From the NCBI GenBank assembly GCA_011109175.1, contig RDEW01000055.1, forward strand, positions 201,516 through 265,515: a stretch of 64,000 nt of DNA. Reading direction: 5' to 3'. The notes beneath the pieces were generated by a model. It had not been told where the DNA came from. It worked only from the letters and a program-made list of their open reading frames with translations, and made no database searches. The position numbers and the translations under genes were made by a program. This document shows, piece after piece, positions 1,701 to 58,455 of this stretch. The number at the start of each line of letters is the position of its first letter. The stretch's first letter is position 1. The stretch is from Dicyema japonicum (taxonomy: Eukaryota > Animalia > Dicyemida).

Positions 1701-1734
1701 ATGGTGAACAAACATCAAACAATGCCGATATGAA

Positions 1735-1940: not shown

Positions 1941-1999
1941 AATAAATTTATTGTTATTATTATTAGTAAAATTATTAGATAATTAGTAAGAGAAGTAAT

Positions 2000-5560: not shown

Positions 5561-5572
5561 ACGGTTTTCTGA

Positions 5573-5888
5573 TTAATTTAATTTATTAACCCCGGATACA
5601 CCGAGAAAGAAGTTAAAGTAAACAACTAATTAAGTGTATCCAGTTTCCACTTCACAGAGTCCATCCGGAATTAGCATAAAGGGTAAGACGTCCATTGTGG
5701 AAACCTCTCCAGTGGAGTGGGGAAGAGCAAATGATCCTTTTTCGTGCTGGCCTGGCACTGGGCGTCACCTAAACAGGTGGATCACATGACGCCACTCTAA
5801 TAAAAAGAGAGAGGAGGAACAGATAAGAGCAGAAAACTTCAATCAATTAGCCACGCAGCACCACATGGCGCCACGCGAATATTCTAAC
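5573..5888 (-). mobile_element. Short non-autonomous Vingi-derived retroelement, copy A (5' pseudoknot plus LINE 3' tail)
   Basis: Ends tctttctcggtgtatccggggttaataaattaaatt, compared with the LINE tail tctttctcggtgttcccggggttattaaaataaat (about 46950-46990). Contains the LINE 5' motif at 5732-5793. Three more copies in the window. Confidence 0.8.
5732..5793 (-). ncRNA. Candidate pseudoknotted RNA element with HDV-like topology (best-paired copy)
   Basis: GGCGUCA-UG-UGAUCC-ACC-UGUUUA-GGU-GACGCC-CA-GUGC-CAGGCCA-GCAC-GAAAAA-GGAUCA; helices covary with 43998-44057. Confidence 0.55.
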
Positions 5889-6575: not shown

Positions 6576-6820
6576 CTTGTTATCCACCTATCTCATCTAA
6601 CGCCCAGTTCCAGGCTGACACAAAAAAGATCATTTTATCTCCACCACTCCACTGGAGAAGTTTTCACAACTGAATGGACGTCTTTTACCTTTTATGCTGG
6701 TTCCAGATGCAATTTTTAAGTTGAGGACTTTGTTTCTGTAACAGAGGAAACTGGATACACTAAACTAGTTGTTTACTGTTAACTTTTCTATCGGTTTATC
6801 GAGGGTTAATAAAAAATAAA
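6576..6820 (+). mobile_element. Short non-autonomous Vingi-derived element, copy B (5'-truncated)
   Basis: Reverse-complement homolog of 5573-5790, including ccactccactggaga, ggaaactggatacac and the gggttaataaaaaataaa tail. Confidence 0.75.
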
Positions 6821-7048
6821 TGTCAGAAAAAAGATATTACAGAAAGGAGATGGCCCATTGAGTTGGGGTTTCAATTCCGAGAGACCGGACTTGACTAAAT
6901 TGAACTTTAGCAGCTTTTAAGTGTTTTTTGTTAAAAATAAAATAATTTTATTTAGCAAAGTTTACATCACTAATTTCGTGCAGTATAGAATTAGCTATTG
7001 AATCGTTCAAAGAAATTCTCGAGAAAGAGATAAATTTTCAGAAATATA

Positions 7049-8480: not shown

Positions 8481-8644
8481 GGGATGTTGGCTTGCTAACA
8501 TAACAATGGTATTACATTACAATATATAAAATGACAACCTCTCCATTTTCAGCATCAATAGTTTCCTAGTCGATATCTTCACAAAGAATTCCCGTCAGGG
8601 ATTTATGTTTGAGTTATTTTTTTCTTCATTAACAGTTCTTCATT

Positions 8645-8912
8645 AACAACACTAGTTAAATGTATCCAGTTTCCACTTCTACAGAAACAGAGTCCATCCA
8701 GAATTAACATAAAGAGTAAAAGACGTCCATACTGCAGTTGTAGAAACCTCTCTAGTGGAGTGGGAGAGTAAATGATTTTTTCATCCCAGCCAGGCACTGG
8801 ATGCCACTTAGACGTTGATCACATGACGCCACTCTAATAGGAAAGATAATTAAACAGAAAACTTCAAACAATTAGCCAAGCAGCACCACAATGCGCCACG
8901 GGGAGATATTTT
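8645..8912 (-). mobile_element. Short non-autonomous Vingi-derived element, copy C
   Basis: Collinear with 5630-5888 (gtatccagtttccactt..gatcacatgacgccactctaata..attagcca.gcagcaccaca); abuts the start of cassette copy 2. Confidence 0.8.
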
Positions 8913-11590: not shown

Positions 11591-11593
11591 ATA

Positions 11594-20300: not shown

Positions 20301-20340
20301 ATTTTTTTTCTAATTTCTTTATAAATTTTGCAACTGAATT

Positions 20341-30600: not shown

Positions 30601-33600
30601 CTACTGTAGAGACTGAATATCTGATTTTTAGCTATAAGGATAAAATCTACGTTTATATAGAGAACACGGACCCGAAAACCGTGATTTTGTCCGCTCATGG
30701 ATATGGAACTACAATCTCCGTAGATCCCCCATTTTGTCCGTCCATGTTTCTAGGAAATCATTTTAGGTAGCATTTTAACTTACCGTCAGTACGAAACCAT
30801 TCAAGAATGTTTACAAACTTAAGAATGAAGGCAAACGGCAGCAGCATTTGGTTTGGAATTGCGTTCCAATGAGTTCCGTGACCAATAAAAACGGAAAAAT
30901 TCATCTTACACACGAGGTTTGAATTTCGGGGGATATTTAGATTGCGACTAAAAAGTTCAAGACTACCTTTACTTTGAACCCAAACAGGATGGATCTCAAC
31001 GTGGGGGACGAATGTCTTCTCTACCTCGAGGCCAAGTGCCAAAAGTAGGATATCAACTAATTCCAGTCCCCAAAAAATATCAGAACTCATAGTTTGTGAC
31101 GCCATAATAGGTCAGCACGGGGGGAAAGACACTATCATAAGTTCTGAGATAACCTGCAATTTTATCGAACCCAACGTTGAGCTTGAAAATTCTGAATTAA
31201 CTTTTGTATTTGAAAAAGTATGAATTTTGTGAAATTTCTAGAATATAACAAACGAGTTGCACGTTCAAAACAGATCATTCGGGATTCGGAATGTCTGTCC
31301 TCTAAAACTCGAGACAATTTTGTCCACAGAATATCCTTTCAGTTTGGCTTACAATTCCTCCACTTTTTGTCAGGAAATGGTAAATAATCACCAAATGTTA
31401 GACATTGATAATCGACCCGGACGTAGAGGAAACAATCCTCGTCCAATTTGACCCCGCCTTTGAGGATGACTTGATAAACCGTCAAGTCGTGAGAATCTGG
31501 TGATAAAATACGTCGATCACGTAAAAATTGTATGTTCAACATTTGACTGGTAGGATCGCATAACCTTGAAGGGACAGGTTTTCTTCCCGAATTTGACCTT
31601 CGACTCTAAGTTCATTAATTTTGGGAATATCATCAACAATAAGCAATCCATAAAGTACCTCAGAATGTACAACTCTTCTACAATTTCCTCTTCATATTCT
31701 TGGAATTTTGTGCGAAATACCCTCAAAACTGAGATTATCATCCCAGTAATTATATTTGCTAATTTTAGAACGAATTTCCGCCTGACTCGGAAAATCCCCC
31801 AATCGAACAAGTAAATGTCCTTAGTAAATTAGATCTTTGATATTTTACCTTCTAGTGGAGTCGTGAATCCACAGGAATCAGAAATCATCACTTTCACATA
31901 TTTCGGAAACGAAAACAGGGCTTTCACCGGCAAAGCCTGTTGCTACATTCAGGGGGGACCAATTTATGAATTCGATCTCCGAGCTGTTTCCTCAGAAATA
32001 AGTTACCACTTTGAGGAAGAGGAAATTAATCTCGGAAAAATAGTAAGCGTATTTACAAAGTTTAGTTGTTTGATCGGACCTGTCTGTCCCAAATTGTTGT
32101 ATACAATGACTGTGTCGTACCATTAAAGTACAGCATCATACAAGACTCTGAAAACAAGTTACTACAGCCCTCCGTGGAAGTTCAGACCGTTCCTAACATT
32201 TAAATTTAAACTTAGGACACCATTGAAGGGAATAGTCACATGTCCATTCAAGTGGAAATATTACCGTTGATTCTGGGGGACTTTGAAAGATACATAAAAA
32301 TACAAGTTTATGTGGGGTTAAATTCAGATCGCTCATTTCGAGCCAAGGGTCATCAAATTCCGTGGATACGGAGTCTGTCCTTCAGTCGACATTGATCTGT
32401 TAATGGAGTCTGAGATGGTGCTTTCAGTCTTAACTGATTTAGTCCGCTGAATTTATTGCTTCCAATATGAATGACAAATTGAGTGAGTTTGTAGAATCCA
32501 ACAAGTCTTTGAACTGTGCCACGTTTGACGAAAAAAGTCATGTGCAGTTTTTGTGTAAAAGGTTGGATGCAAAGTTAATAGCAGATTATTCGAGAAAGAA
32601 GCCCCAATTGACTTTGGCAATGTGATTCCTGGAATTCCTAAAGAAATCATTTTTTCTGTTCGAAATACTTGCGAAATACCGATTTCTTTCAAAATGAAGA
32701 AAAAATGCTTAAAGAAGTTGGGGTTCAAAATAATCTACAATGAAATGGAAGCGGGTTACCTCCCAGTAGGAGGTCGACAAACGGTAGGAATTTCACTCAA
32801 AGCTCCTCAAATTGAAAAGGAGTCTCTCTCCCTATTTTCACAGCAACAAATTCTTGTATTTTTGATGTCTCCAATATTAGATTGATAATGGACCTTCTGT
32901 TACTCTGAACCTAATGGCGACAGTCACAAAACCTTATCTGACTTTCACAAGTGACGTCGTCGAGTTTGACTCAGTTCAGACCAGCTTTTCAAAAGTCATT
33001 TTCGTCAGATTGAACAATCCTCACCCGGTGGACGTCCACTGGAGTATAAAATACCCCCTAAAGAAAAAGAAGGTACTAGAACTTCTAAATTTAGCAAATC
33101 GATAAGTTTTTGCCTTTGCATTTGAAAGTTTCAAAGAACAAAGAAAATGACCATCGACGAATTTTCGATTTTAAGGAAATCAACGGGACCGTTTTCTCTG
33201 GTGAGTTCACTGATCTTCCCATTGCTTTCTCCCCCAGAGAAGAGGTACTCTTGAGAATAACATAAAGATGTTTTACGATGAAACTATCACTTTCAATATT
33301 GTCGGAAATCAGGAAAGTACGTGTTTGCAATGTACGGGATATGGACATGAGCCAAAACTACAGTTCGACTTGAACTTTTTGGAATTCGGTCCTTGCTTGC
33401 CTCATTCCCCCGTGTTATCAAAGGAAGTCAAAATTTCAAACCCATGTGACTTTGACATAGAATTTTACAGTCTAAATTTTGACAAAAAATATGTCTCAGA
33501 GGACCAGGTTGATCCTCTAACTAAGTGTTAAGATTTTGAAGAACATAACTTCTTATGATGAATTCAAGTGTATAATGAGCCCAGCTCGTTACCCGAGGAC

Positions 33601-36600
33601 AGATCTCCCGAAATATCTAACTGAAACGGTTTCGAGTTCTTCTCCGACGAAAATCGACCATAATGAGGATTTTAGGAATGGTTGGATTGCTAAAATATGT
33701 GTTTAGACTCGGAAAACCAGCCTGATTTGTCCGATATTCCAATTTCGGAAAGGAACAAAGAGGATGAAGAAAATTTTATCGCTTTTCTGATCTTAGAATC
33801 TCCTGAATTTGGTATATGCTGTGATTTAACCAGATAAATCCAAAATTGTTGAGAAACTGACGGAGGAATATAAAATAAAGCATTTGGTCATCGATGAAGT
33901 CATTACGGGGGAAATCTCATCCGAGAGAATCACTGAGTCGAATGAATTATGCAGAAAGTTGTGCCGGGAAGCGTGTGCAAAGAGGGAGGAAGGTCTGTTG
34001 GACGTTATTGAGCGGACTTCTGAAGTATTTTTGGACACTCCAACTCCGTGTATGCTGAAAATATTATTTATAAGCCAAACTGGGGGTTTCGAAGACTAAG
34101 ACAAAGGATAAAAACAAAAGTATGGTCAATGAGGGGGTTAGAGTGAGTGGAATTAGCTTAGATATTCCAATGTGGACTGTTGAAGCCGGTGGAGATAAAA
34201 CCCGACATGATTTCGTGTTCACTACCGGAGGATATTGTGGTAGAACTTATATCCAAGAGAATACAGGTAATTAGCATTGTTATTATCGACAGTCTGAATG
34301 CATGAATGGGGTCGTAATTAGTGGATTTGAATCTGTGTATACTTCCTCCTATGTCAGTTCGCTAACATGTGCTCTCAAATCTCTGGGGAATCAGAAACAC
34401 ATTTACTCAATCTTCATAAAATCAAAGCTTTCAACGTACATTGAAAATAAGCGAAAACAGGAAGAGGAGATTGGTTGTTAGATTTTTGTAAAATTAGCCA
34501 AAATGATGGAACTGAAGGAACTCCACGAGAGACAGTTGATTGAGGAAATGAGTGAGAGTGAGTATGAAAACCTCAGTCAAGTGGAAAAGGAGGCAGTAAA
34601 CATGAAATTATTGGAAATTAAGCGAGAAAGAATTGAAAAGTGCTTTATTACCTAATTGTGAGGTCCGATAAGGAAAAACAAGAAAAACTGCTGAAAGAAC
34701 AAATAGAGAAGGAAAATAGTACCAAGAAAACTGAAGAAAGGTGATCCGTTTGCTAATTTCAGAAGGAGGGACCGTGGAAAGAACAAAAGCGCTAGCGGAG
34801 TGAAGTCAGATAAACTAAAGACTTTGAAGTCTAAAGACGATGTCCCTGAACTGTCCGAGTCTGAGAAGTATTCGAGTCATTTAATTCCAAAGAAAAAAAC
34901 TTAAGAAAATAAACGAATCTGAGAAAAAGGAGAAGGGGGAGTCAATTCGGATGCGGAAGACACTCTTTCGTTGCATGAGATGTCTGTTAGTATGAGGTAC
35001 CCCGCTATTTTTACAAAGATATAAAATCTACGATGGAGTCATTTCTCAACTAAAAGACTACCTCACATGCTGGAATCGACAGAACCTATCTATTAGTAGT
35101 TTCACCAATGAAAATGAGGATGACTTAAAGTCTAAGCAAAAAGGAGCACGTGGTTCACTGGAATTTATTACTCAAAGAGCCGAAAAAGCAAAAATCCGAC
35201 GTCATGGATGAGAAAAACAAGGCCAAAAAAGACACTGGCATTCTTTTCACGGCAATAGAACCGGACGGAATGGAAGAGGACGAAGTCATAGAAAGCATTC
35301 TGTCCTGTGACATCTTTCCCTCGTATGAAATGGTAGAGTTTAAACTTGCATGACAGATTTGCAACATTTTCGAACGAAAGGAATCATTAAAGCCCTTGCA
35401 GTCTCAGTTATTTTCCATCATTAAATATCCGACTGAGCAAAAGAACTTGACATGTTCGGAAAATTTTTCGATATTATCCGTGAGACCCGAAGATACTGAA
35501 GTGTTTGTGCTTATTTGTAAAAGTATAACAGAAGCCCTGTCGAAGAGTTGGAGACTACTTCGGTTCCTAAGGCAAGCGTTTCCGATAAAATGTTGAATGT
35601 ATCTCCCCCAAAGTCGAAAAAGACAAAAAACCGTATTTTTGATTCAGTAATGTTAAGAGAGGCGTAAAAACTCTGAAAAGAAGGATAGGAACCTGTCGCT
35701 TTCTACTTTTCAAAACGAAGCTGAACCGTAAAAGATATATTAAATTTAGACCATTGTCTGATCAGGAAGTGTTGGAGGTCAAACCAAAGTATATTTATTT
35801 ATGTATGTTCAGGGAGAAATACTATCGGTGGGTGATCCCCGCCAACCAAGACATAACCATGAATGTCGGCTTCATGTCTGATCTCGTCGGAAACTTTGAT
35901 CAAACACTGAGTTTTGAAATTTTGGGTTCACGAAGACTGATCCAACTATTTTGCCGAGGGATTTGTTGTATTCCTGCAGTTTGTACAGATCCAAAGTATG
36001 TGGTCGATTCACGAATTTAGGTTCATATTTAATTCCTTCAAAAAGAGAATCAAGGATAATGAGATTTTTAACAACAAATTCATCCTGGAGACCAACACAT
36101 ACCACTTTGGTCCCCTACTAGTAGGAAAATCCCGGGAAAAATACCGAGAATACATTTATGTGGAGAATAGTGAAAAACTATCCATAAAGAATATATCCTA
36201 TATGAACATTGAAATAGAATTCTCATTCTTGAACGACGAAAACGCCAGCATATTCTTGTTTGATCCACCCAAAATGAGTCTTGAACCCAACGAAACCAAG
36301 GTTCATGCTCACTAATGCTTAGATCTTGTCCATTTGGGCGTATCCCACTAAAGCGGAACTTTTTGAGGACACTCTAATTTGTTCCATTAAAAACAACCCG
36401 ATTCCTCTCACTTTCGATGTCAGCTGCAGTGGCGTCAAACCAGAGCTGAAGTTCAGCACAAAAATACTTCAATTTGACAAAGTCCTGCTGCATCGGTATT
36501 TATTTGTCGTCATTTTTAGGAAGGAGTCGAAAACTATTAACATTTATAACCCCACACAGCTCCCCGTTGGGTGGAGACTTGCGGGGATGGAAAACCTCGG

Positions 36601-39600
36601 GGATGATTTCTCAGTTTTGAAAAATACAGGGATTGTCATGCCATATGAGGAGTTCTCCCTCCCCTTCTTCTTCCGTACTACCAAGCCTGTGATTATCACA
36701 AAGAAATACATAAGATTTGAGGTTACATCCAATCTCAATTCTGACAGATCTTTGATGCCTCCAATATAGTAGGAATCGTGGACAGTGAGATCATAAACGT
36801 GGCTGTGGAAGCATACGACATTGCACTGGATATAACCTTCCCCAAAGGTGTTTATTTTAGATCATTAAAGGGGTTGATGGGGGTTTGGACTTTGGGGTCT
36901 TCCACGTGGGGAAGAGGTTAAACAAAATATAACACTAAAGAACAAGGGAAAGTACGAAATTGCTTACAAGTAATAAGTAATGTGAATATTAGTTTCATGT
37001 TTTATGACGATGATAAGTCAAATTGCTACAAAAAGTATTTCATACTCCCAAGTCTAACACTCTCGGAACGGGGAGAGGCCCAACCAAATCCAATTCTATC
37101 TCTAAGCTAATGAAGAAATTGACATAAAAAATCTCCCAATTTTGAAGTTCCAAGTAATCGACATGAATGTTTTCAATAAACTTAACGTAATCGCCAATAT
37201 TCCTGTCAGAGTGTCCGCCAAAAGCGTATACAGCAGGCACGCTTCTGACTAACTCTAAGATTCCAAATCGTCCCATCCAATGAAATAAACTTTGGACATC
37301 TTTCGACTTACAGCAAAAAGTCGAGAACGCTTACCATCGAAAACACAGGAAATTACGAATTTAAATATTATTTTATCAAGTCAAGCGACAAAAAACAGTA
37401 AGACATTATTAATTCTAGAAAAAGCGATCTTGCTCAGCCGAATCTAATCCAGACTAGAATCTCAATAAACTGTTTCACAATTTCCCCCGCCTGTGGTCTC
37501 GTGATGCCTGGGAACATCCAAATCGTCAACATTGACTGTGTAACGGAACATCCATCAGTCTGTATCGAGGTATCTCCATATATGACCTCAAAGAACTTTT
37601 ACATTGAAATATCCGACCGAGACACGACAAAGTATCCAAAGGGGATCCCTCTAAAGTTGATGACCGAAACAGTCCATCCGGAAATATGCACAGACATCGA
37701 TTCCATATTCGAGGAGCACTTTATAGTAGAAAAACTTCAAAAACATGATTTGAATCAGGTAACTCTGATTCATACAATTTCAGCTAAACTACAACGGCAT
37801 TTTCATTAAAGACGAACAGAAACTGCTCTTCCCTCATGTTTCCGTGGGCAAGCACGTGCAGTGTCGTATTAAGCTACGGAATATATGCCAGGTTATAAAG
37901 ATCTGCTTATTCACAGATTTCAGTCGATATAATTGTCGTGTTAAAATCACAAGGAAAAAAACAGTCAGAGTGTTTCAGTCTGGAGGTCTCCAAGTTTCAG
38001 ATCCCCATAAATGATTATGTTATGGCTCCCATAAAATTTATTCCGACTAGTCTTCAGGTGAGGGTCGTTTGGGACTATTAGATGTACAATACCACACTGG
38101 AATGCTATATTGATAATAACCCGGGAAATCCAAAATCTACAAAAACTCTAATTTTCTCATATTTACTTGAGGGAGAGGGTATCTTCCCCTCAGTCCAAAT
38201 AATTGAGCCTAAACTCAAAAACGTGAAAGGTTATTGCTTTTCAAACTTCAGGACAACCGTTGATTCTGTTTGAGAGAACTCGAATAAATAAAAAGATCGT
38301 AAAATCTCTGGAAATCCTAAATAGTGGAGTCTGGCCAAGTGTCGTCTCCATCAACCTCAAGGATTCTAATGGGTCTTTAAAATGGGCAATTCTGATGATC
38401 CAAACAACTATGATATTTTCGGTATTGAAATGTAAAGATTGTAGACTTTGAAAAGAGCGCAATGACAAGGAGACTCAACGCGAATGAACGCTTCACTGGT
38501 GACATAACAATTGAGACCTCTGTCCCCAACAGCTACAAAGCCCAAATATTAATTACCGTTGACGGGAACGAATATGAGAAACCGTCATCCCTGTTCAGGC
38601 GAGATTCACGATGACCCAGTAATTCTGGAAGGTCTGCAACTCTCCAAGTCGTTAACCACTAAGACTGAAAGTTCCTCATCCGACGAATTCCAAAGTTTAT
38701 TTCAGATTTAGTCAAGTCGCTACATTGAATCAAATTTATCTCCCCGACGTTGTAGTCGGAAATAAAACATCCGCACAGTTTTCCCTAGTGAACTGCACTG
38801 AGAACAGCTGTTATAGATTCACGTGGATTGAAATCCAGAATTTAAAAATACATCCAAAGGTTTGTTCTGCTAAACACCCCAGATTGGCCATTTACATGCA
38901 GGTACCACAAAAAACATGACTGTGACTTTCAAAACGTCAAAACCCGTTCAGCTCTCAGAACAGATAATTTGCTGCAAATTGCAAAAGATTACATTCAGTG
39001 ATAAAATATCAAACGTAATCGACTGGGACGATCAGCTCAAGGTTGCCAAGTGGGACAAAATTCCTCAATATAACGAAGACAGGTATTTTCCTTAAATATT
39101 CAGAAGCGAAATAATTTCATATAAAAACTCAAAAATTTACGAAAATGTCCCCGAAATAGAATTCACGGAAGTCAACGAAGCTGTGAGTCCTCTCGAATTG
39201 AAAGTTTCCACCAAATCTGATACTATTCGCTATTCCGTCGACGTCACAAAACTGACGTTCTCAGACATTCCTGTCCTTGAGTCTGACACGAAAGAGTTCA
39301 GTTACCTCTAATTTTAGAATATGTCTAATAAACGAGAGCACAATTGGATTAGAGTACTTTTGGGAGATTGAAGAGATCTCTGATAGTGACTCCAATAGGC
39401 ATAGAGTTTCCTGATTTCCTAGTGATATGTGTGTGGAATACAAGCCATTCAGTATTCATCCTCAAAGTGGCTCCGTTCAGCAGGGAAAAGGACAAACTTT
39501 TACTGTTAAATTTACTCCACTGGAAGTGAAGAAATTTGAAATTAAAATGCAATGCAGGTACCTCCACCTTTATATCAGAATATCTGACGTTTCTGACAAA

Positions 39601-42600
39601 TCGTGGCCGATTTTATCCATCACTGGCAGTTCTAAATGCCCAAACTTTTATTTCGATTTGGAACAGGACTCTACGATTTCTAACTTCCAGTACCTTTACT
39701 CTCCTCTTCCAGCGAGAGAGTTTCCGTGCGATTTGTTCTACAGCCCCGTTCGGATTAAAATTGACACGAATGCCGTCCAAAATAAAATAATAAAGTTTAT
39801 AATTTGTTTATTCGAAGAAAGTTTGTCTTCTTCAATCCAATCGACGAACGCCTGAGATTCCGATGGGTCAACAAGGACGAGTTTATCTTCAGTAAGGACG
39901 TCAGTTTGCAATGTTTTACTGTGGAGGACTCAGTCGGTCCTGGAAAACGATACGAGGTTCTTTAATGACGCTTATTTTCAGATGGCCTTTCAGTTTGAGT
40001 GCAAAGTCGAGGGGATTTTTGAGTTTCGTGGGATTTGGTGATTCTACCAATAAACCTTACACTCCCATTCACATTTATTGGAACCTACACCAACCCTTGT
40101 GTGATGCTCGATCGGTCATTCATTGACTTTGGCAGAGCATTCATAGGTAGAGTCTAATTTTACCATAATAGGGAGAAAGCTGATTTCCAAAATAAAGATA
40201 ATTAATTTGGAGGACTTCCCCCAGGAATATACAGTCGACAGATCCTCATGTTTCAGCACAAGTTTTATCTCCCATTTGACCATTACACCAGAAAGTGGAT
40301 TTCTTTTACCAAAATCACAGTTAATTATGTTAATCACAATAGTAACGACTTGGAGATAAGTTACTGCCACGATAAGGCAATAAATGTGAACATTCACCCA
40401 CTGATTTACATAAAAAACAGAACGGCTCCACTTAAACTCAACATCAAGGCCGTTATCGCGGGTCGAATGCATGGTAGTCATGGAAACAGAGACCAAACAG
40501 AGAATCCCCCTTAAAGAAAACGAGCTTAACCTCTTTGAACTAAACAAGGTCATTTACGTTAAAAATAACAGTTTGCCACTGGGGAAACCATCGTCTATAC
40601 ATTTTACATCACCAACAAGAGTAACTTTCTGATTGAGTACAAATGGGTCACCAACGAGGACATTGATGACTCTTGTAAAATTTATCCCGAATTCGGAAAT
40701 ATCCCTGCTTTTGAAGAAACGAACAGTCACTTACTTCTGAGGTTCCCTGATTTCGGAAACAACAGGAAACTGACCATCAGTCTCTCTGTATACTATATCC
40801 CATATGTCTAGATTATAAATGGGCCAACTTACAAGATCAGTCTGGTTTTGAAGTCGAAGGTCCCGGGAATTCATTTTTCGTTCTTCTCCCATAATTTTGA
40901 GCTCTGTTATATCCACCCAGCTGGGACCACCAAAAAGAGAACTGAATTAGTGCTGTATAACAAGGAAAAGTCCAACTTGAGGTTGTTCACATCTGTGATT
41001 ATAGTCTGCGACTTATTCGAGACAACTGTGACCCCTTTGATGTTGAATTTGAATCGGTGTTGTTGAGTCCGGAGCAGGAAGTAATCGTCCCGATCAGTTT
41101 TACTCCTTCAAAGTCAGGCAAATTCTCAAAGACCATCACCTTTGAAATAAACGGAGTCCACTCGAAGACTGTCCAACTGTTCGGAAAGGCTGTGGATCTA
41201 AAAGTCCTCATTTGTAACATTAAAGATTGAAACCGCCGAATTGAATGACACCACCCTCAATTTTGGGACTATTAAAGTGGGGGGTGTTAAGAAAAAGAAT
41301 GTTGTTTTGCTCAACAAGACATCACAACCAGTTAATCTCAAGTTAAGTCTGATAACCGCTCGATCCACCGCATTTCAGCGTGGTTTGATGGAAATAAAGC
41401 CTTCCAGTATGATTTGCATGGAAGCAAAAAACGGAAGAATGCCAATTTCCTTAATTTTCTCTCCCAAAAATCGGGTTTCTGAATTTACAGACGAAGTACG
41501 TGTTTTCTACATTCGTAGGTGTTGATTGAAGTCGAGGACATTGCTTTCAGGGCTTTCTATGTGACTGGAAAAGCCATAGCCTCCGATGTGGTCCTCAATA
41601 CCTCCAATATTGCCTTCGGAAAGATCACCCTGGGTTGCAGTGTCGAGAGAAAATGCCAGATTCTGAATAATGGGGACATTGGAGTGAGGTTTAGACGTTT
41701 AGGGAGTCGTAGATTTGTCTGGGAGAATACAAACTCGGAAATAGAGATATCCCCATCAACGGATTCGTTAAACCGGGGGACATGGCTCCGATTGATATTG
41801 TTTTGAAGCCAAATTCAGTGAACAATGATATAAGAATCGAGGTTCCGTGAATTTACCGTATTTGCAGAACATCAAGTGTTTTCTAGGCGACATGACCTGT
41901 TTGGATCTGATTGTGACGGGGTCCTGTGAGGCGGCCATTCCGTTTAAGGAAATTGAATTATTCGTCACTTCTGTCAGACAGTTGGATCGGAGACAAATAC
42001 CACTGATAAACAGATCCAGTCAGACAATGTCCATTGAACCGAAGATTGAGGGGAAGTATTGGTCAGGGGGAGATCACATTATTGTTGAACCCTATCAGAC
42101 TAAATTGTACGATGTTATCTACCAACCGTTGAGTATGACCACGGAATCCAATAGACACTACGTATGAGTATCTGTTATTCCAGGGATCAATATTTTTCCC
42201 GCTCCCAGACGGGACTGCCCTGTATTACACTCTTCAGGGAATCTCAGAACCCCCGAAACCGAGCGGGAAACTCTCATTAGAAGTATCCTCCAAACTACAA
42301 CTAAACGAATCCGTAAAAGTAGAGAATTGGTTGAACGTTTCCCAATGGTGAACCATTAATGTTATAAATGCAGCTTTAAGATTGTGATAACCCACGTGCG
42401 ACCAGAAAAGGTGGACCAAACCTTCAAAGTTCACGGTCCCTCGCACATAAACGTGGGAGCTTTGGAGACTGTGAATTATGATTTCAGTGTTTACTCCTAC
42501 AAAGAGGGAGCATTCAACTTTAAGGTTCCCCCTTGCTTGATTTTAGATAACATTCTTGAACGAATCGTCTGGTGAGTACATCTTCTACGAGGTTTTCGTA

Positions 42601-43844: not shown

Positions 43845-43975
43845 TTATTTCATCGTCGCTTTGAAACACCGTGAATAATCTTCCATGTTAGATTCTTTCA
43901 CGCTCTCCTCGAGTTTCTTATTTAAAGTCAAAAGATCTTTGTGAATTGAAATAGGCAGAGCGTCAAAAGTATCCA
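43845..43975 (-). mobile_element. RTE 3' remnant split by the Vingi-like insertion (other half at about 47005-47080)
   Basis: Joined across the TSD it reads FGHIL..PNIAM (right flank), then LPISIHKDLLTLNKKL (left flank), the order seen in the RTE C-terminus. Confidence 0.55.
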
Positions 43976-43997
43976 GGATATAAAATGTTGTTAGCGT

Positions 43998-44057
43998 GGT
44001 GTCATGTGGCTCACCAGAAATGGTGTCACCCATTCCAAAAAGGAATGAAAAGAGCCA
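43998..44057 (+). ncRNA. Candidate pseudoknotted RNA element at the LINE 5' end
   Basis: GGUGUCA-UG-UGGCUC-ACC-AGAAAU-GGU-GUCACC-CAUUCC-AAAAA-GGAAUG-AAAA-GAGCCA; same helix order as 5732-5793. Confidence 0.55.
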
Positions 44058-44122
44058 ATAGATTTTTCCCACCGTCCGGTGGTCCTTTCATCTCCTGTGT
44101 CTTCGACCCTGTCTGGTGTCTC

Positions 44123-44179
44123 CATTTGTCCAGAATTTTGATTCTTCTATGTGGAGACGTCGAAACCAATCCTGGTCCA
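44123..44179 (+). other. 2A-like ribosomal StopGo peptide
   Basis: HLSRILILLCGDVETNPGP matches D(V/I)ExNPGP exactly and is in frame with the APE domain. Confidence 0.9.
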
Positions 44180-47100
44180 TGGAGAGGTTTTACAATTATA
44201 CAACTGAATACGAATGGGATCAGGAAGAAAATCTTTGAATTCCGGGCACTCCTCCGCAAAAATGAGGCTGACCTCGCTTTAATACAGGAGTCCAAGCTAT
44301 CTCCCTCCATACCAACACCCTCTTTTCCCGGATACACAGTGATCCGTAAAGATCGTCAGAGAAGACGCGGAAGAGGACTACTTACTATTATAAAGAACGA
44401 TTTTCTTTTTGTGGATACAACTCAACTAACCTCAGAGCTTCTTGGCTCCGACAAGACTTTGGAGCAGATTACTGTCAAAATGGAGTTATTCCCGTTCTTT
44501 TGGATCCATTTAGCTAATTTATATATTCCTCCACAAGGATCGTGTCCGTCATCTTACACCCCTGATTTATCACGCATTTCAACGTTGAAAAATCTACTGT
44601 TATGTGGAGATCTTAATGCACGACATCCAGTTGGCTCACTTTCCAATCTTCTGATAACCGAGAGATAACTCATTGCAAATTATCCCTTCCTGACCTGATT
44701 ATACTGAATAACCTTAACTCATATACGAACCCCCATTAAGGATGACTGATAGCTGCACATCCCCCCCGACTTAACACTATGCTCACCTTCTCTGCTTGGA
44801 CTCATCTCCTGGAACGTCTTTTACGGTCTTCTCCAGTGACCACAATCCAATCCTTCTAAACTGAGAGGTCTTCGACGATACAGGAGACGGCCGGCGGAAT
44901 CAAAAAGATTCAAGGATTATACGAAGGTTGACTGGTCTGGTTTCAGTAACCTTGTGGATAAATTCTTGGCCGGAGATTATCCTTCCCAATACGCTCTATT
45001 GACGAGGCCGCAGAAATTATCAGCGCTGCCATTCAGAAAGCTGACCATATTTTTATTCCTATATCGTCATACAAGAAGTTTATTCCTACCCTCAGCTCTT
45101 ATACAATAAGTCTTATAAAACAAAGAGACCGGCTGAAGAGATGCCATCTGTTGGACATGAAGTCTTTGACAGCCCTCAGACAACTGAATAAAAGATCTGT
45201 CAGAGCATAAAAGAACACAAGGACAAGAGATGGCAGCATCTAGTTAACCACCTCGACAGGAAAAGTACATCCCGACATTTCTGGAAAACTCTTAAACAAG
45301 TCAAGTCGGAGCTGGATGATGCAGACGGAACCGGAAAGTCTTCTCCTGAACACTTATGCCACCTACATCCTAACACCTTATGAAACATTACGCTGGAATT
45401 AGCTTCAAACCATTCTCGAAACACCTGGACATTAAGGTGCGTGCCCATAAACCGAAGAAGGAACCTTACACGAACTATTCACAGATGACCAAGTCTTGGA
45501 TGTGATCACCAGATTAAAGAGCTCACGGGCGTGCGGGCTTGACAAAGTATCTTCTATTCACCAAAAACACCTAAGCCACTACGCAATTGACTACCTCAAG
45601 CATATATACAACTGTCTATTAACTAAAATATTATTCCAAGATTTGAAAGAATTCTATCATCAGACCGATATTGAAGGCTGGGAAAACAGAGACAGAACCT
45701 GCATCCTACAGGCCTATTTCCGTTACCAGCACACTGTCAAAAATTATGGAGAAACTTGTATTATCAGTCATTATTCCGTATCTTCCGCGTCCTATATTTC
45801 AACATGGTTTCCTCCGCGGTAGGTCCACCGCTACATACTTGGCAACTTTATTGCAGTTCATTGCCGACGGTTTTAACACCCAGCCTCCGCTTCACAAACG
45901 CACAATATTGGTTTCTCTTGACGTCAACAAAGCTTTCGACACTGTTTCGTTGAAAATCTTAGTTGGAAAAATATTTTCTACTAATATTCGTCCGAATGTG
46001 AATTTATGGCTGGTCAACTTTTTGTCTGGAAGACGTGGAAGAGTAGTCAGTGGTGATCTCAGATCTAGATCACGATTACTACCAAACGGGGTACCTCAGA
46101 GGTCTCCACTTTCACCAATTCTATTCAACCTATTCCTACACGACCTACCTAATGATGGAGACGAAGATTTCCTGCTATTATCCTACGCAGACGATGTAGT
46201 CATTGCAATAGGAACCGCTCGACGCAAGTCAAAACTCAGACAAAATTGAACAGTCTCCACGATTGGATTGTTGGCAATCGACTAACGATTTCTGCAACTA
46301 AGTCCATCTGTTTCACTTTCACTTCGGACCGTCGTTCCAAGGATGAACCGAGTCTTTTCATTGGTCCCACTAGGATTCCAGTGACAAGTCCCCCATTGTC
46401 CTTGGAGTCAAGTACGACAGCCTTCTCAATTTCAACTCCCACGCAACAGACATGATCACCAGGGGCCTCCAGAAAGTTAACGTTATACGCGCCCTTGTTT
46501 GGAGGATCACGAGGAACATGGACTTTTCCGTTTCTACCTCTACCAACAAACAATCGCGCCTGCCGTTGAGTATGCCTCCGTTGCATGGAGATCCGGGCTA
46601 TCGGAGTCTATGGTCCAAAGAATCAACTCGATATACCGGAAAACAATCAGTATGCTTTGCCCACGTAATGGATCAACAGTCGACCCACTACTCATGGAAG
46701 CTAAGATCCGTAGTCGTGGCTCCGGATTTCTTCGCGTCTGTGAGGAAGATGGAAATCCGCTTCGCCTGATCCTTTCCATGGCAAGAGAAAACCGATTGGA
46801 TAAGAAATTCCCCTCCCCGATCGGATTCCTCTGCAAGACCGAGAGAAGGCTCTTCCGGAAAGTAGTGGGGACAATGGAAGATCACAGACGTCGAATGGCA
46901 CAATTGATTGCGAGGACTGGGATCACCTAACTGTTTGACTCTTTTGTCTTTCTTTCTCGGTGTTCCCGGGGTTATTAAAATAAATAAAATAAAAAAAGGT
47001 ATCCATAAAGCTCTGGAATTAAGCTTCATAGCAATGTTAGGCTAAATGCTTGATCCATTTAGGATATGTCCAAATAACTTCCACCTCTTACTAAAACTCG

Positions 47101-51558: not shown

Positions 51559-52691
<1,133 letters not shown>

Positions 52692-53436
52692 ATGATCAGC
52701 CAAAGGAGACCGTTTCTGGTGTTATGTATGATAGAATTTATTAATTTTTTTAATTTATAATGATATTTTTCATTTATTTTTTTAAAAAAAAAACAATTCA
52801 TTACAAACAAGACAATCAAAATAATCCATTTGTAGGGTGGAAATTAAATAATGATGCACCTCACTATTGCTTTATCTTTTATTTATTCATTCGCATCTAT
52901 GACATGATTTATTTAGTCACGATTAACGTTCACTCTACCTGCAGGGTGCAGGCCAAAATGGTCAATCTGGTCCCAACATATGCACACTGACTTTCAATCC
53001 GAATGAGATCCAAATAAGAACTCATACATCATCCAGTAGGTACCCAAAACTCTACTAGGAAAGGCGTTGAGTCAGTCTTCACTTCTGAAAAACACCCTGA
53101 CAACAAATAAGCATGACAGTCACGGTTAGATGGCACCAGTAGATCTTCTAATAACATACGTCCAGAACCCGTTGAGAGTTCAAGGAAAAGGAGAAATACA
53201 GGTAGATACGGTGTCACGTGCAAGACCGACGTTCTGATTTGTAGAGAATTTGGCGAGGGTTTGTAAAATTTTCTTAACGTTAAAATAAATTTTGTAAATC
53301 AATACGACGTTAATAACAGTGGACATCACCCACTAAATAATAGGTCGAAATTTGATTTTGTGTAACGTTAAATAGATTATTAAAATCAATTAGGCGTTAA
53401 GATATAAAAATTGATATTTTAATTTTTATAATGAAC

Positions 53437-53727
53437 TCGACCCTCGCAACGATTTTAAAAATTTTTCTAAGAAAATTTAGGATTCGAACCCATGAACCTT
53501 CAGATCCGGTGTCATCAGACGTTGTACGTTCAAGCTGAAGGCCCGATGAGACGATCAGAAGTTTTTTTTTTTTATAATTTCTTCAATAAGAAATTACAAA
53601 ACAAGTATTATTGAAACAAAAAAAACAGTTAGAAAAAATTGCTCTTCAAAATTATTGATTTTATTTTTTTTCAAATTGGACACAAAATTCTAAAAAACAA
53701 AAATGGCCAATTTGCGAGGGTCGATGT
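53437..53727. mobile_element. MITE with pogo-like TIRs
   Basis: tcgaccctcgcaa (53437) and ttgcgagggtcga (53712-24), followed by tgta; absent from the homologous position in cassette copy 3. Confidence 0.65.
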
Positions 53728-54329
53728 ATCTTTGAAGTGAGATTTTGTGTAGAAATATTGAGTTAGAAAATAATTGTTAAGATTGACACGTTAGAGAACA
53801 CGTCGGTAGTTCCTCGATACAAAATAAATTATAATTGCTTATATTAATGTTAAATTTAGGAAACTTTAGTGAAAAACGATAGCCTGTTCAGATAATAGCA
53901 CGTGCCTGTAGCGAGGAAACAAATCGAGATTATGAGGTAGTTGCGGAGAGAGGTTATGATTACTTGGTTGTATTTTTTTGATTGTAATGTAATGGTTACC
54001 TTTAAATAAACATAAGATTTGAAGTTAACACTATGTTACGGACAAAGCCTGACTGTTTACTGCATTTGATATATTTTAAAAATAGATTAAAGGTAAACGC
54101 TTCGTTAGGGTATGTATAAGTTTACCTTGTATGCAGAGAATCAGAAATTCCGGTGAAACATAAATATTTAATAGTTTACCTTTCTGACAATTAAACTGCA
54201 GGTTAATTAGTCAGACCGCACATATCAAATTCCAAAAGTTGATATTCATATCTTTGTAAAAAATTAAATAAATATAACTCGCTTCCAGTTTCTGCTTAGC
54301 CAGTTGTGTTGTATATTCGTTTAGTGCGA

Positions 54330-55560
54330 CTTTATTCCATTAAATATGAGTAAAGACAAGGTGGAGTATTTTCTGTCACCAAGACAAAGTGGTTTCCGGT
54401 CAGGCAGATCCACTGCCGATGTCGTTTGGACACACAGATGGTCAAGTGCTCTATGCCAAAAATATAAAAAGTGCATAAATGTTCTCGGAATAGACATGTC
54501 CAGAGCGTTTGACTCGGTTCATAGAGGCAAACTTCTTGAAGTACTCACAAGCTTCCTAACAACGGATGATGTCAAAATTATACAAAAACTACTGCAGAAT
54601 ACGCAACTAGCAACCAAACTCGGAAAAACTACTTCAGAATTCTTTTATACTTCACGTGGAATTCCGCAAGGAGACTCTTTGTCACCAGTTCTATTCATAA
54701 TCTACCTGGAGGCTGCACTGAGAGATTTCAGGCCTTTAATTGAGAACAACAAAATAATCGAGTTAATATATGCAGACGATCTTGACTTTGTTTCTGAAGA
54801 TGTTGAAATTCTTCATCACGTTCTCAAGAACTTACCAAATGCCTTTTCTAAATGGTTCTTAGTTGTCAACCAAGACAAAACTGAATATACAAAACTTGTA
54901 CGAGTTGTACGCACTTACGATGAATCATGGAGAAGGCATAAAAAAGTTGGTTCACTACTTGGAGACTCAGAAGATGTTACCCACAGAAAAATCCTTTCCA
55001 CTGCTGCATATAAAAAATTCTTAACTATCTGGCGTTCTAAGAAGAGCATAACTACGAATACAAAGCTAAAATTGTATAAAACATTCGTGGTTCCAGTCCT
55101 GACATACAACTGTGGGACATGGGGGATTACGAAACGGGAAATGGACAATCTGGATCAATTTCATAGAAATCAACTAAGAAACATCTTGAGAATACATTTC
55201 CCGAAAAAGATATCAAATTCAGAACTGTACAAAAGATGTGGCTTAAGGCCATTATCAGAGGAGATTCTCAAGGCTAGGTGGAGACTTTTTGGTCACATCT
55301 TACGAATGGATATGTTGACTCCACCAAACATTGCAATGGAGAACTATTTCGCACAACTGAAGGGATCATTCCGTGGCAGGCCTAGAGTGACGTTGCCTTC
55401 AGTACTAAATGATGACCTAATCCGAATAAACAAAACTCTACGAAATGGTCAAGATCTTGACTCACTACGAGCAATGGTCCGGAACAGGGGAACAGGAAGA
55501 GGATGTGTGGGAGGATACTGGACGTGGCACAAGGGGAACTTAATTAATCTAATTAATTTT
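54330..55560 (+). mobile_element. RTE-clade LINE, 5'-truncated, with an uninterrupted 405-aa RT ORF
   Basis: QSGFRSGRSTAD, GIDMSRAFDSV, GIPQGDSLSP, YADD, RWRLFGHILR and RGRPR. Confidence 0.93.
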
Positions 55561-56189
55561 TGATTTCACGGGAGTGCTTAAAAAATAAACAAATATCACA
55601 TGTTTCTTGACAATTCTTAGTCCGTTAATTAATTCTTTTAGGCAATTAATTCTCTTAAATCTGGAAAACCTTCATAAATCATTATTTTTAAAGAAGTGAA
55701 TTAAACACGGATGACTAGTAATCGTTAAATGATTTCACATTATTTTTTTGATAAATTAACTTTGTTGTCTGAATGAACAATAAACTATTGGAGAATGTAT
55801 TTCACAGATTCTACCTCCTTTACAGAACAACTGAAGGCGCAAAGTGAATCATTAATATATCTTCTATTTAAGGATGCAACAGAACGTAGATGTGGGGATA
55901 ATGCATCGGTGTAAATTCTATGTTATTCTTTAAGGCTAAAATTATTTTAACGTTAATTAGGGGTGATAAAGTTAATAATAAAATTTAACAAATTCTGTTT
56001 TTTTTCATTATTTTTAAGCGTTCTCCGTTTAAAAAATTATAATGATTCGAAAAACTAATCAACATATAATCAAGAGTAAATAAAGCTTAATATCTTCTTT
56101 TGGTTCCAGGATTGGTCATTTCCCAAGATCTTTTTCTTCCATCACTCGTCTCTGGCTCATTGTTCGACTTTTCGAGCGCGTTACATCTG

Positions 56190-56330
56190 GTTTGTTCATA
56201 ATCTTTGTATCAGTAGTTATAGTTGAGTCAACTCTGATCTCAACAGCTTCATTAGCCACTACAGATTGGACCGAATGGTTCTTCAATTTCTTCGACTGCT
56301 TGATTCCGAATTGGCGACACAGTTGCATTT
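56190..56330 (-). mobile_element. R4/Dong-like fragment
   Basis: QFGIKQSKKLKNHSVQSVVANEAVEIRVDSTITTDTKI.NKPD, homologous to 21540-21670. Confidence 0.7.
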
Positions 56331-56339
56331 TATTTTCTA

Positions 56340-57050
56340 GAGAACTAAAAATTTTTGCGATAACCGATGAAACTCAAATCCGAAACAAAGAATATGTCTC
56401 GGTTTTGATGCGACCTAACTAAAATTATTAATATGGAATGTAAAAATGTCTCTCCTGAAGATTATTTGTCCCTTTTATATTGTCAGCCATCCTCGGCATC
56501 TGTCGAACGATGTTTTTCGAAATTCAAGAGTTTTTTGAAGACAAACGAAAACTTTTGTACACGAAATCGAGAAAATTACGTGATTTCCATTTTCAAAAAA
56601 TAGTCTTTAAAACAACATTTGTCTTTTATTGTTTCGCATCTATATTTTACAAGTTTAAATTGAGAATAAATAGAGTTAATTTGTTTTAATTTTTAGGTAA
56701 AAAAGTTTGGTTTATAGGTTAATATAGTTAACCTTTTAATTTTAAATTTTGAAAAAATTTAAAAAAAATTGATTCACAATGAAACAAGCAGATGATGGTT
56801 TAGAATCGTTGGAATTTCGAAATGACAGCAAATTTATTAAAGAATACATAAATTAAAGGCTTCAAATAAATGATATTTCAAACATAATTAAAATGACTAA
56901 TTCACACATATTTCCTGCCGAGTATTCATTACTCCTGAAATGTCAGCCAACTTTGTGCTCGGTTGAACGATGTTTCACTGAGATAAAGAATTTTCTAAGA
57001 TCAAACCGAAATTTTCCACCAGAAAATTATGTAATTTGTAAGTATAACAA
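56340..57050 (+). mobile_element. Two tandem hAT-like transposase C-terminal remnants
   Basis: CQPSSASVERCFSKFKSFL (about 56481) and CQPTLCSVERCFTEIKNFLRSNRNF (about 56941). Confidence 0.6.
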
Positions 57051-57571
57051 AAAGTTTTAGTGTGTTTATTGTTTAGTTATAAAGTTAATTTTTAAGTTAA
57101 AAAATCGCCCTAGTAATGACAGAGTTTATGGTTACTAACAATTAAGGCAAGTGAAATTCGATAGAAATTTCCACCGATGTTTTTAAGCAACTGTGCTCAA
57201 GAGATCCCTTAACTGTGTCTCATGACTCATATCATGCGAATCCTCTTGTATGTCCATAGAGCAAGAAGATAATAGAAATGACTATTAAAAATCACCGTTA
57301 AAAGAGGAAACAAAGAAATCTAAAAAACTGATTAGTCTGGATAGTTCTCTTTTCACAATGAATGTATTTGTTTGAATGAACAAGTTTTTTGTGTATAGTA
57401 AATTTCAAAAAATTTCAAACTACTAAAGGATCTGGAAGCTAACAAAATTTAGAATTAATCAAAGATTTGAAACCAAATTCCCCAAAGTCATATTACACGC
57501 ATCAAAAATAATTGCCAAATAATTTCTGCTTATAAGCAGTTTTGTCAACGATTATTTACAATTTTGATTAA

Positions 57572-58455
57572 ATGAATTTTCTGTTTTTTGCATTATTTTC
57601 TCCTTTTGTCGGTAATTTATTTTGAAAACAATTTCAGAGAACAGGCATTTAAACAAAAGATTTGATGTCGCCGTTGTTTTTAGTAAAAAAATTGTTTATT
57701 TAATATTTTAAATTTAGGAAGTCGGTTTCCAGTATAATTTTTATAAAGAAAAAAGTACATAAATAATTTGTTCAATTTGTCTCAAAAAGTATACACTTAT
57801 TCATATTTCAGTTTTTTGGAGCAATCAAAATACAATTAAACCTTAAAACAATATACCATACTTTCGAAAATTTGCCAATTAATACTAACAGTGCTGCTAC
57901 ATACGCACAGAAGAAAAAATATTTTAGTGGAGTGGACGCAGTTTTATTCTTTGAGTAAATATTCAAACTGATTCTCAGAGATGTTTATGTCAAACATGAA
58001 GGGGGTGGAAATATTTTAGGAGCTGCATTGATAAAAACTGTTTGTACATTTCGAGCAATAGCAATTGTTTATAAAAAATCGACTGATGAAAGCACTTCAG
58101 AGACTATGTCTCATGAGCTATTCCACGTACTTGGGTTTAAGCACGTCGGAGATACTGCAAGTAATTGCAATAGAAATTGTTTAATGAATCGTTATGTTGG
58201 AAACAAAAAGTATAAATTTTTTTTATAATTTTTATACATGTTTCAAAATTAACAATCGACACTGCATTCAAAAACAAATGGAAGTGCCTTGCACCAAGTA
58301 ATGATTTGTTGTAATTTTTGTAAATGTTCATAATGATGTCCCCAATAATGAAGGGGCCGCCGATGATAATAAGTCAACTGGAGCTAATTTCTGGATTTAC
58401 GCCTTTCTTCTTTTCCTGGTAAAATATTTTCATTATATTTTAGGGTCTTAATTAG
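57572..58455 (+). CDS. Metzincin metalloprotease, diverged paralog 4 (possibly a pseudogene)
   Basis: MNFLFFALFSPFV, HELFHVLGFKH and CLMNR; same intron positions, but the acceptors of introns 5 and 6 read AT and AA; an indel in exon 3. Confidence 0.75.

What the first reader, a model, noticed from the sequence alone, without database searches (positions are those of the whole stretch)
43998..44057. Covarying pseudoknot with HDV-ribozyme topology but an atypical core at the 5' end of a LINE and its short partner
Seen: two diverged sequences (43998-44057 plus; 5732-5793 minus) share the order P1, P2, P3, L3, P3', P1', P4, A-rich joiner, P2'. P1 is GGUGUC/GUCACC (one mismatch) versus GGCGUC/GACGCC. 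P2 is UGGCUC/GAGCCA versus UGAUCC/GGAUCA (compensatory changes). P3 is ACC/GGU with a 6-nt loop in both. P4 differs in sequence but pairs in both. Known: L1Tc/ingi, R2 and some RTE elements start with HDV-like ribozymes, and in L1Tc a 2A peptide follows. Here L3 lacks the UCC-type consensus, there is no GG for P1.1, and the joiner is GAAAA(A); only copy A has a C before it. Inference: a variant self-cleaving ribozyme or a non-catalytic translation or RT-binding element, possibly an undescribed motif class.
Basis: partly seen in the sequence, partly recalled or inferred. Interest (0 to 1): 0.78.

Follow-up and report, generated by a model that had tools for sequence, protein, structure and literature searches.

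The report
Remodelled delta-ribozyme fold heading a LINE
A jumping gene and its abundant short partner share a knotted RNA shape of the hepatitis-delta self-cutting type whose stems were kept through paired changes but whose cutting core is altered, so it likely cuts weakly or not at all and likely serves as a structural front module instead.

Summary
The motif is real: 43998-44057(+) heads a decayed 3-kb LINE (2A peptide, APE, RT, no RNase H: Vingi-type). 5732-5793(-) lies in a short non-coding partner that shares the LINE's 3' end. Five base pairs in P1, P2 and P4 differ on both sides and still pair.

Correction: other LINE copies carry C at 44046 (98-100% of contig depth in four runs). The family joiner is therefore C-GAAAA, with the catalytic-position C, and this window's U is private decay.

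The core is still atypical: 6-nt L3, no U20-G25, no CC/GG P1.1, a family-wide U-U in P1. No Rfam HDV model matches. Both families begin upstream of the canonical cut site (about 9-13 nt; about 85 nt), and 19-37% of short-partner depth has C-to-U. A related LINE (L204) has a canonical HDV fold in the same place.

Best reading: an HDV-derived fold kept for structure, likely weak or non-cleaving (0.5); an active variant remains possible (0.27). Only two diverged families were compared; no cross-species alignment was obtained. The scan noted related ribozyme-LINE modules on other DNA.

The parts
43989..46996 (+). Decayed single-ORF LINE, Vingi-type architecture (2A, APE, RT, no RNase H). 5' boundary 43985-43989.
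   Evidence: Pfam APE and RT; tblastn of relatives leaves no room for RNase H; loose ends at 43985 and 43989 and a contig starting at 43989; possible 11-nt target duplication 43965-43975 / 46995-47005
43989..43997 (+). 5' leader upstream of P1, part of the element; a canonical cut would remove it
   Evidence: Depth ratio 0.47-0.58 exceeds the 0.24 ceiling for a start at 43998; 6 of 7 nt shared with the same place in the short partner
43998..44057 (+). HDV-type nested pseudoknot. P1 43998-44003/44025-44030 (one U-U), J1/2 44004-06, P2 44007-12/44052-57, P3 44013-15/44022-24, L3 44016-21, J1/4 44031-32, P4 44033-36/44042-45, J4/2 44046-51
   Evidence: family variation
44046..44046 (+). Position equivalent to HDV C75: T in this copy, C in the family
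   Evidence: C at 0.98-1.0 of depth in four runs
44058..44179 (+). Open leader frame ending in a 2A-like motif (DVETNPGP at 44156-44179); no family in-frame AUG between the 5' end and 2A
   Evidence: Translation; AUG list: the in-frame AUG at 44045 depends on the private T at 44046
44201..44653 (+). APE endonuclease domain
   Evidence: PF03372, E 7e-6
45680..46216 (+). Reverse transcriptase domain (longest open part)
   Evidence: PF00078, E 9e-24
46925..46996 (+). LINE 3' end, shared with the short partner (5565-5635)
5565..5877 (-). Short non-autonomous partner (copy B): hairpin head, pyrimidine tract, pseudoknot, remnant of the 2A/APE junction, LINE 3' end
   Evidence: 9937 contigs of run X1 lie on 5705-5895 against 1425 on the LINE's first 500 bases
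5732..5793 (-). Second pseudoknot. P1 5793-88/5766-61, P2 5784-79/5737-32, P3 5778-76/5769-67, L3 5775-70, P4 5757-54/5748-45, C75-equivalent at 5744
5844..5877 (-). Head of the short element: a hairpin that begins with a partial second copy of the P1-J1/2 start
   Evidence: Folds as a 12-bp hairpin, -18.8 kcal/mol; loose ends at 5875 and 5877; no tRNA found
5694..5716 (-). Remnant matching LINE 44176-44196 (end of 2A, start of APE)
6578..6830 (+). Decayed short-partner copy C
8651..8900 (-). Decayed short-partner copy D, with head; T at the C75-equivalent place

Best explanation
This is the shared 5' RNA module of a Vingi-type LINE and its short partner, likely descended from an HDV-like ribozyme, whose helices were kept through compensatory changes while the cleavage core was altered, so it likely cuts weakly or not at all and likely works as a folded structural cap. 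Shown: the sequence pattern, the paired changes, the family C, the altered L3/P1/J4/2, and element ends upstream of the canonical cut site. Inferred mechanism: the element RNA starts about 9-13 nt upstream of P1, probably from an internal promoter as with Pr77 in L1Tc. It folds into the double pseudoknot, which shields the 5' end and helps full-length reverse transcription, as the fold does for R2 templates. In the LINE the fold probably also supports AUG-independent entry into the leader-2A-APE-RT frame, and 2A skipping then releases an enzyme that begins at the APE domain. The short partner keeps the fold and the 3' end and borrows the LINE protein.
For: Fold under selection: 5 doubly changed pairs of 19 between the families. 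A one-sided P1 change U-A to U-G in the short family keeps pairing (0.41, 0.23, 0.08, 1.0 of depth). HDV ancestry: same helix order, C-R-A-A joiner, and L204, a 2A-APE-RT LINE (RT 37% identical), has a fully canonical fold in the same position followed by an AUG-free open frame into 2A. Weak or absent cutting: (a) the LINE boundary is 43985-43989, not 43998, and 6 of 7 upstream nt are shared with the short family, which efficient cutting at P1 would erase in one round; (b) the short element carries an 85-nt head upstream; (c) C-to-U at the catalytic place reaches 0.23, 0.19 and 0.37 of depth in X1, X4, X5, while the P1 CpG at 5791 changes in under 0.02; (d) L3 has no U20-G25, and G25A strongly impairs a fast HDV ribozyme (PMC13635239, passages); an R2 ribozyme with C-to-A and G-to-A in L3 is inactive, and P1 mismatches go with poor cleavage (PMC3774820, passages); (e) the P1 U-U is family-wide, since all T>A places in the four runs are accounted for elsewhere. 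The fold itself helps R2 template use (PMC11331408, section 6).
Against: The LINE family keeps C followed by GAA, and P3 is identical in both families, as an active enzyme would need; but the family is young, so retention alone is weak evidence either way. Non-GG P1.1 is compatible with fast cleavage, an elongated J4/2 was active in a theta ribozyme (PMC10879173, passages), and about a quarter of R2 ribozymes have mismatches at the top of a 6-7 bp P1. In the R2 template study the C98A mutant was severely inhibitory, so fold and catalytic C are not easily separated. Head depth in the short family is only 0.22-0.49 of pseudoknot depth against a geometric ceiling of about 0.65, so head-less copies cannot be excluded. 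Contig depth is not copy number. No RNA data were obtained, so the promoter, the translation role and the fold in vivo are untested.
Confidence: 0.5

Rival explanations
1. An active HDV-like ribozyme with a remodelled core. It cuts just 5' of P1 using the conserved C as general acid, with a single inverted G-C pair (L3 position 2 with the first J1/4 base) as P1.1. Cutting is slow or conditional, so uncut transcripts are also copied.
For: C retained at 0.98-1.0 in the LINE family and in a second organism. G at L3 position 2 and C-A in J1/4 are the only loop and joiner bases common to both families. Natural P1.1 variety. A relative has a canonical fold in the same place.
Against: Element ends upstream of the cut site, frequent C-to-U in the short family, no U20-G25, 6-nt L3. 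No Rfam HDV-type match even at E up to 10.
Confidence: 0.27
2. A pseudoknot of independent origin (RT-binding or translation element) that only resembles the HDV topology.
For: No sequence-level match to any Rfam ribozyme. L3, P1.1, P1 and J4/2 all depart from the HDV pattern.
Against: Helix order, 3-bp P3, direct P3'-P1' junction and C-R-A-A joiner all match. It sits where L1Tc and L204 carry HDV-like folds, ahead of a 2A peptide.
Confidence: 0.12
3. A self-cleaving RNA with a different active site that cuts about 9 nt upstream of P1 and so makes the observed LINE 5' end.
For: The LINE boundary, and the start of the short element's head relative to its own P1-like hexamer, both lie about 9 nt upstream. 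The upstream bases are conserved between families.
Against: No helix that would position this site was found. A transcription start explains the same boundary more simply. The same upstream bases sit internally in the short element, where cutting would remove the head.
Confidence: 0.07
4. Chance pairing in two related repeats.
For: A loose descriptor hits 0-5 times per shuffled window. Single-strand folding predicts P2+P3+P4 for one copy and a different fold for the other. Only two diverged families were compared.
Against: Five doubly changed pairs, p 2.7e-4 before complementarity. Pseudoknots are outside what the folding tool models. The motif is kept in the non-autonomous partner, which lost nearly all coding sequence.
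Confidence: 0.04

Closest known systems
L1TcRz / Pr77 hallmark of L1Tc, NARTc, ingi, RIME and SIDER (PMC3185411 passages; PMC4035085 parts 1-2 of 7)
   Same: HDV-type fold at the front of a single-ORF APE-RT LINE, followed by a short leader and a 2A peptide; the same fold kept in short internally deleted partners; weak 1-bp P1.1; SIDER2 has two tandem hallmarks, like the doubled start of the short element here.
   Different: L1TcRz cuts at +1 of the element and L1Tc has RNase H. Here the element starts upstream of P1, RNase H is absent, L3 is 6 nt without U20-G25, and the host is not shown to be a trypanosomatid (host not identified).
R2 HDV-like ribozymes (PMC3774820 passages; PMC11331408 passages and section 6)
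   Same: 6-7 bp P1, variable P4, some natural members with little or no in vitro cleavage, and a fold that helps template use.
   Different: R2 keeps a strongly conserved P1.1/P3/L3 core and cuts in or at the rRNA flank. Here L3 is almost free in sequence.
[quoted passage not shown]
   Same: Non-GG P1.1; catalytic C in J4/2.
   Different: They keep G25, which is needed for activity. This motif has no G at that place in either family.
Vingi LINEs and their bipartite non-autonomous derivatives (PMC5786205, PMC4494074, PMC13708176, PMC3708506: passages; Kojima 2011 not read)
   Same: About 3 kb, single ORF, APE plus RT without RNase H, short derivatives made of the 5' and 3' ends.
   Different: [quoted passage not shown] This element and several relatives have 2A motifs, and this one has an HDV-type fold.

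Membership tests
HDV-like ribozymes | Nested double-pseudoknot order P1, P2, P3, L3, P3', P1', P4, J4/2, P2' | tested here: met
   5 doubly changed pairs between families
HDV-like ribozymes | P1 of 6-7 bp directly after P3' | tested here: met
   6 bp; family-wide U-U at the fifth pair in the LINE, U-A or U-G in the short family; 6-7 bp typical in R2
HDV-like ribozymes | Catalytic C at the start of J4/2 followed by N-A-A | tested here: met
   C at 0.98-1.0 in the LINE family; U at 0.19-0.37 in three runs for the short family; T in this window's LINE copy
HDV-like ribozymes | L3 with the U20-G25 reverse wobble (metal site) and conserved C | tested here: not met
   6-nt loops, A-G-A-A-A-(U/C/A) in the LINE and U-G-U-C-U-A in the short family; no G at the 25 place; importance of G25
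HDV-like ribozymes | P1.1 of 1-2 bp between L3 and J1/4 | tested here: inconclusive
   No CC/GG. One G-C pair is possible in both families (two pairs in the short family), but in a register shifted by one and with no covariation. Non-GG P1.1 occurs in active ribozymes.
HDV-like ribozymes | Element or RNA 5' end at the base before P1 | tested here: not met
   DNA boundaries about 9-13 nt (LINE) and about 85 nt (short) upstream; RNA ends not available
HDV-like ribozymes | Match to a curated Rfam HDV-type model | tested here: not met
   0 hits at gathering score in the window; only unrelated chance hits at E up to 10. The canonical-looking L204 fold was also missed, so this test is insensitive.
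HDV-like ribozymes | Mg2+-dependent self-cleavage leaving 5'-OH and cyclic phosphate | not testable with these tools
   Needs an in vitro assay
Ingi clade (strict) | RNase H after RT | tested here: not met
   No match to the RNase H part of P0003 and no room before the 3' end; 0 of 22 relatives scanned have it
Vingi clade | Single ORF with APE and RT, no RNase H, about 3 kb | tested here: met
Vingi clade | RT groups with named Vingi elements on a tree | not tested
   No named Ingi or Vingi reference was returned by the searches; the assignment rests on architecture
Bipartite non-autonomous LINE derivatives | 5' and 3' parts of the LINE without the ORF | tested here: met
   Shared pseudoknot, 2A/APE remnant and 3' 70 nt; plus an extra head
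2A (StopGo) peptides | D-[VI]-E-x-N-P-G-P motif with an upstream hydrophobic stretch | tested here: met
   ILILLCGDVETNPGP before APE; skipping activity not testable here

The most novel reading that the evidence does not exclude
A self-cleaving HDV-fold ribozyme that works without the U20-G25 metal site, with a 6-nt L3, an inverted single G-C P1.1 and a lengthened C-GAAAA joiner: a new catalytic core on the delta scaffold that current descriptors and Rfam models miss, carried by Vingi-type LINEs, and doubling as an AUG-independent translation entry for a 2A-APE-RT frame.
Probability: 0.2. Interest if true: 0.8.

Novelty: new variant of a known kind. Interest (0 to 1): 0.52.

Why it matters
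Either outcome of one simple assay is informative. If it cuts, G25 and the canonical L3 are not required, and ribozyme searches are missing a class of delta variants. If it does not, it is a natural case of a retrotransposon keeping the delta fold after losing catalysis, which bears on whether these folds act mainly by cutting or by protecting the RNA and starting translation. Vingi elements are in use as gene-insertion tools (PMC13708176, passages), and the papers found here do not describe their 5' RNA structure.

Tried and rejected
No whole genome is held for this window and the genome-index search gave no answer in six tries, so there is no copy-level alignment, covariance model or cross-species set. 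Pattern scans for the motif: 5 viral and 120 metagenome stretches (scan cut at 49 of 64 parts); all 125 were scored, none had 12 of 12 pairs in P1+P2, the three best (11 of 12) relied on G-U pairs, and I treat them as chance. Rfam: no ribozyme hit. The look-up of sequencing runs: no RNA holder listed. Protein searches: 3 distant hits for the APE part among longer proteins, none for leader+2A+APE among near-length proteins. Related loci: none in viral contigs for the window RT; 78 viral and 79 genome loci for the alignment, nearly all bacterial-type RTs at 21-37% identity, of which only L204 was examined. No phage match. PDB search gave only R2, LINE-1 and group II intron RTs. A four-copy DNA alignment put P2' out of register, so no pair count was run on it. 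tRNA origin of the short head: no ARAGORN or Rfam support. The AUG at 44045 was rejected as the family start because it depends on the private T. The AUG in J1/2 (44004) is out of frame with 2A. Ruminski et al. 2011 (PMC3308841) was not held, so its ribozyme set could not be compared; supplements of the papers were not read and may hold Ingi or Vingi ribozyme variants.

Full report
Observation. Both motifs are present as described: 43998-44057 on the plus strand and 5732-5793 on the minus strand. A sequence-free pseudoknot descriptor finds them together with several AT-rich stretches and hits 0-5 times in each of 12 shuffled windows, so a single copy proves little. The support comes from comparing the two families. 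Of 19 pairs in P1, P2, P3 and the family P4, five differ on both sides and still pair and one differs on one side; the chance of five doubly changed pairs given 11 changed positions is 2.7e-4, before asking for complementarity. The structure was derived from these sequences, so the figure is optimistic. Rfam has no match at gathering score and no ribozyme match at E up to 10; it also missed a canonical-looking fold in L204.

Context. The plus-strand motif heads a decayed 3-kb LINE: a 2A-like motif at 44156-44179, then APE and RT domains, and no RNase H. Of the 150 best RT relatives I scanned 21 near-full-length ones that looked like the same kind, plus P0001: all 22 have APE and RT and none has RNase H. 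Thirteen of 58 proteins of 850-1400 aa match a strict 2A pattern. This is the Vingi architecture as described in PMC13708176 (passages), but no named reference was available for a tree. The minus-strand motif lies in a 310-nt non-coding element that shares the pseudoknot, a 21-nt remnant of the 2A/APE junction and the last 70 nt with the LINE. Two more decayed copies are in the window. The host is an unidentified eukaryote; no genome was held.

Family variation. Six public runs hold this DNA, none on record as RNA. Laying contigs of four runs on the LINE start shows C at 44046 in 0.99, 0.98, 1.0 and 1.0 of depth (the last two rest on 8 contigs and 1 contig). The family joiner is therefore C-G-A-A-A-A and the window's U is a private CpG-type change. 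It also creates the window copy's longer P4 and its in-frame AUG at 44045. Variation listed inside the motif is confined to the last L3 base and the P4 loop; 8 rows of the table were not shown, but all T>A places are accounted for, so the U-U in P1 is family-wide. For the short family (9937 contigs in X1) the majority P4 is 4 bp with a 5-nt loop, as in the LINE. A change in the 3' strand of P1 turns U-A into U-G in 0.41, 0.23, 0.08 and 1.0 of depth. The catalytic-position C is U in 0.23, 0.19, 0.37 and 0 of depth, whereas the P1 CpG at 5791 changes in under 0.02 in the three runs of organism A. Depth of contigs is not copy number, and three of these runs are one sample.

Core. Against HDV numbering, P3 is 3 bp and identical in both families, P1 is 6 bp, L3 is 6 nt with only its second base (G) shared, J1/4 starts C-A, and J4/2 is C-G plus four or five A. 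There is no U20-G25 pair and no CC/GG P1.1; one inverted G-C pair is possible but shows no covariation. The literature cuts both ways. Two fast ribozymes have U:A plus C:U or U:U as P1.1, but G25A strongly impairs one of them (PMC13635239). R2 ribozymes have 6-7 bp P1 stems, often with mismatches at the top, yet the sow bug ribozyme with changes at conserved L3 sites is inactive and a horseshoe crab element with a P1 mismatch did not cleave although it dominates its population (PMC3774820). A theta ribozyme with a longer J4/2 is active (PMC10879173).

Ends. L1TcRz-type ribozymes cut at +1 of the element (PMC4035085). Here loose ends fall at 43985 and 43989 and one contig starts at 43989. The depth ratio of the first two bins, 0.47-0.58, is above the 0.24 ceiling for a start at 43998. 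Six of the seven bases before P1 are shared with the short family, so they have been inherited over the time in which the two motifs diverged. The short element starts about 85 nt upstream of its pseudoknot with a hairpin head that repeats the P1-J1/2 start, reminiscent of the two tandem hallmarks of SIDER2. Head depth is 0.22-0.49 of pseudoknot depth against a ceiling near 0.65, so head-less copies may exist. Efficient cutting before P1 would strip these upstream parts, which argues that the copied RNA is mostly uncut.

Ancestry and translation. L204, a LINE found in a metagenome bin (RT 37% identical), has at 548-624 a 7-bp P1, 6-bp P2, 3-bp P3, an L3 starting U-C-C with a G five bases in and an extra hairpin, GG, P4 and C-A-A-A. 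It has no AUG in any frame between P1 and its 2A motif, and the frame is open throughout. The window's family likewise has no in-frame AUG before 2A. One relative is a single observation, but it places a canonical HDV fold at the same position and makes descent with remodelling more likely than a new class. AUG-independent initiation by such folds is recalled from Ruminski et al. 2011, which I could not read.

Mechanism. I favour an HDV-derived fold kept for its structure (0.5): transcription starts just upstream, the pseudoknot protects the 5' end and helps full-length copying, as the fold does for R2 templates (PMC11331408, where the catalytic-C mutant was nonetheless severely impaired), and it likely supports entry into the leader-2A frame. 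Rivals are a slow active variant (0.27), an unrelated pseudoknot (0.12), a cut at a new upstream site (0.07) and chance (0.04). None of the functional steps was tested.

Novelty. HDV-like ribozymes at LINE 5' ends, 2A peptides and bipartite partners are known. Searches for Vingi with ribozyme (three papers hold all three terms; passages read) and Vingi with pseudoknot (two papers, one read in passages) showed no description of a Vingi 5' ribozyme or of this core; variant-core searches showed none in their listings. The library lacks most subscription papers and Repbase. Earlier notes of this scan describe a ribozyme-leader-2A LINE and RTE elements with an L3 hairpin in other genomes; none matched this sequence. 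Verdict: new variant of a known kind, interest 0.52.

Noticed in passing
L204:548-785: A eukaryote-type LINE (2A, PHD-like repeats, APE, RT) inside a bacterial metagenome bin, with a canonical HDV-like fold that has an extra hairpin in L3 and an AUG-free open frame into 2A.
   Followed up: partly
window 44004-44073, run X6 (organism B): One low-depth contig carries the pseudoknot followed directly by a sequence resembling the LINE 3' tail, hinting at a minimal element of fold plus tail in a second organism (tables 7 and 8).
   Followed up: no
window 44021, 44037-44038, 44058 onward: A second LINE-like subfamily (A at 44021, GG in the P4 loop, different bases after P2') is minor in X1 and X3 but dominant in X5 and the only form in X6.
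   Followed up: no
window 5794-5835 (-): Pyrimidine tract ending in TTAG just before the internal pseudoknot of the short element, resembling a 3' splice acceptor; the LINE has TTAG at the same place.
   Followed up: no
window 44004-44141 (+): The AUG in J1/2, shared by both families, opens a 45-codon frame in the family that overlaps the leader-2A frame out of register.
   Followed up: partly
window 7688-8494 (-) and 22277-22894 (-): Fragments of a second RT family of the same kind, 56% identical in protein to the 45647 RT, without their 5' ends.
   Followed up: partly
window 29466-39852 (+) and 52209-52565 (+): Exon-like frames with ASH/HYDIN/CFAP65-type Ig domains, and a protein kinase fragment.
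   Followed up: no
window 1434-4689, 8918-11591, 17400-20302: Three 93-98% identical copies of a 2.7-kb repeat in mixed orientation, with older relatives at 53268-58484; a DDE_1 transposase fragment at 24760-25194.
   Followed up: no
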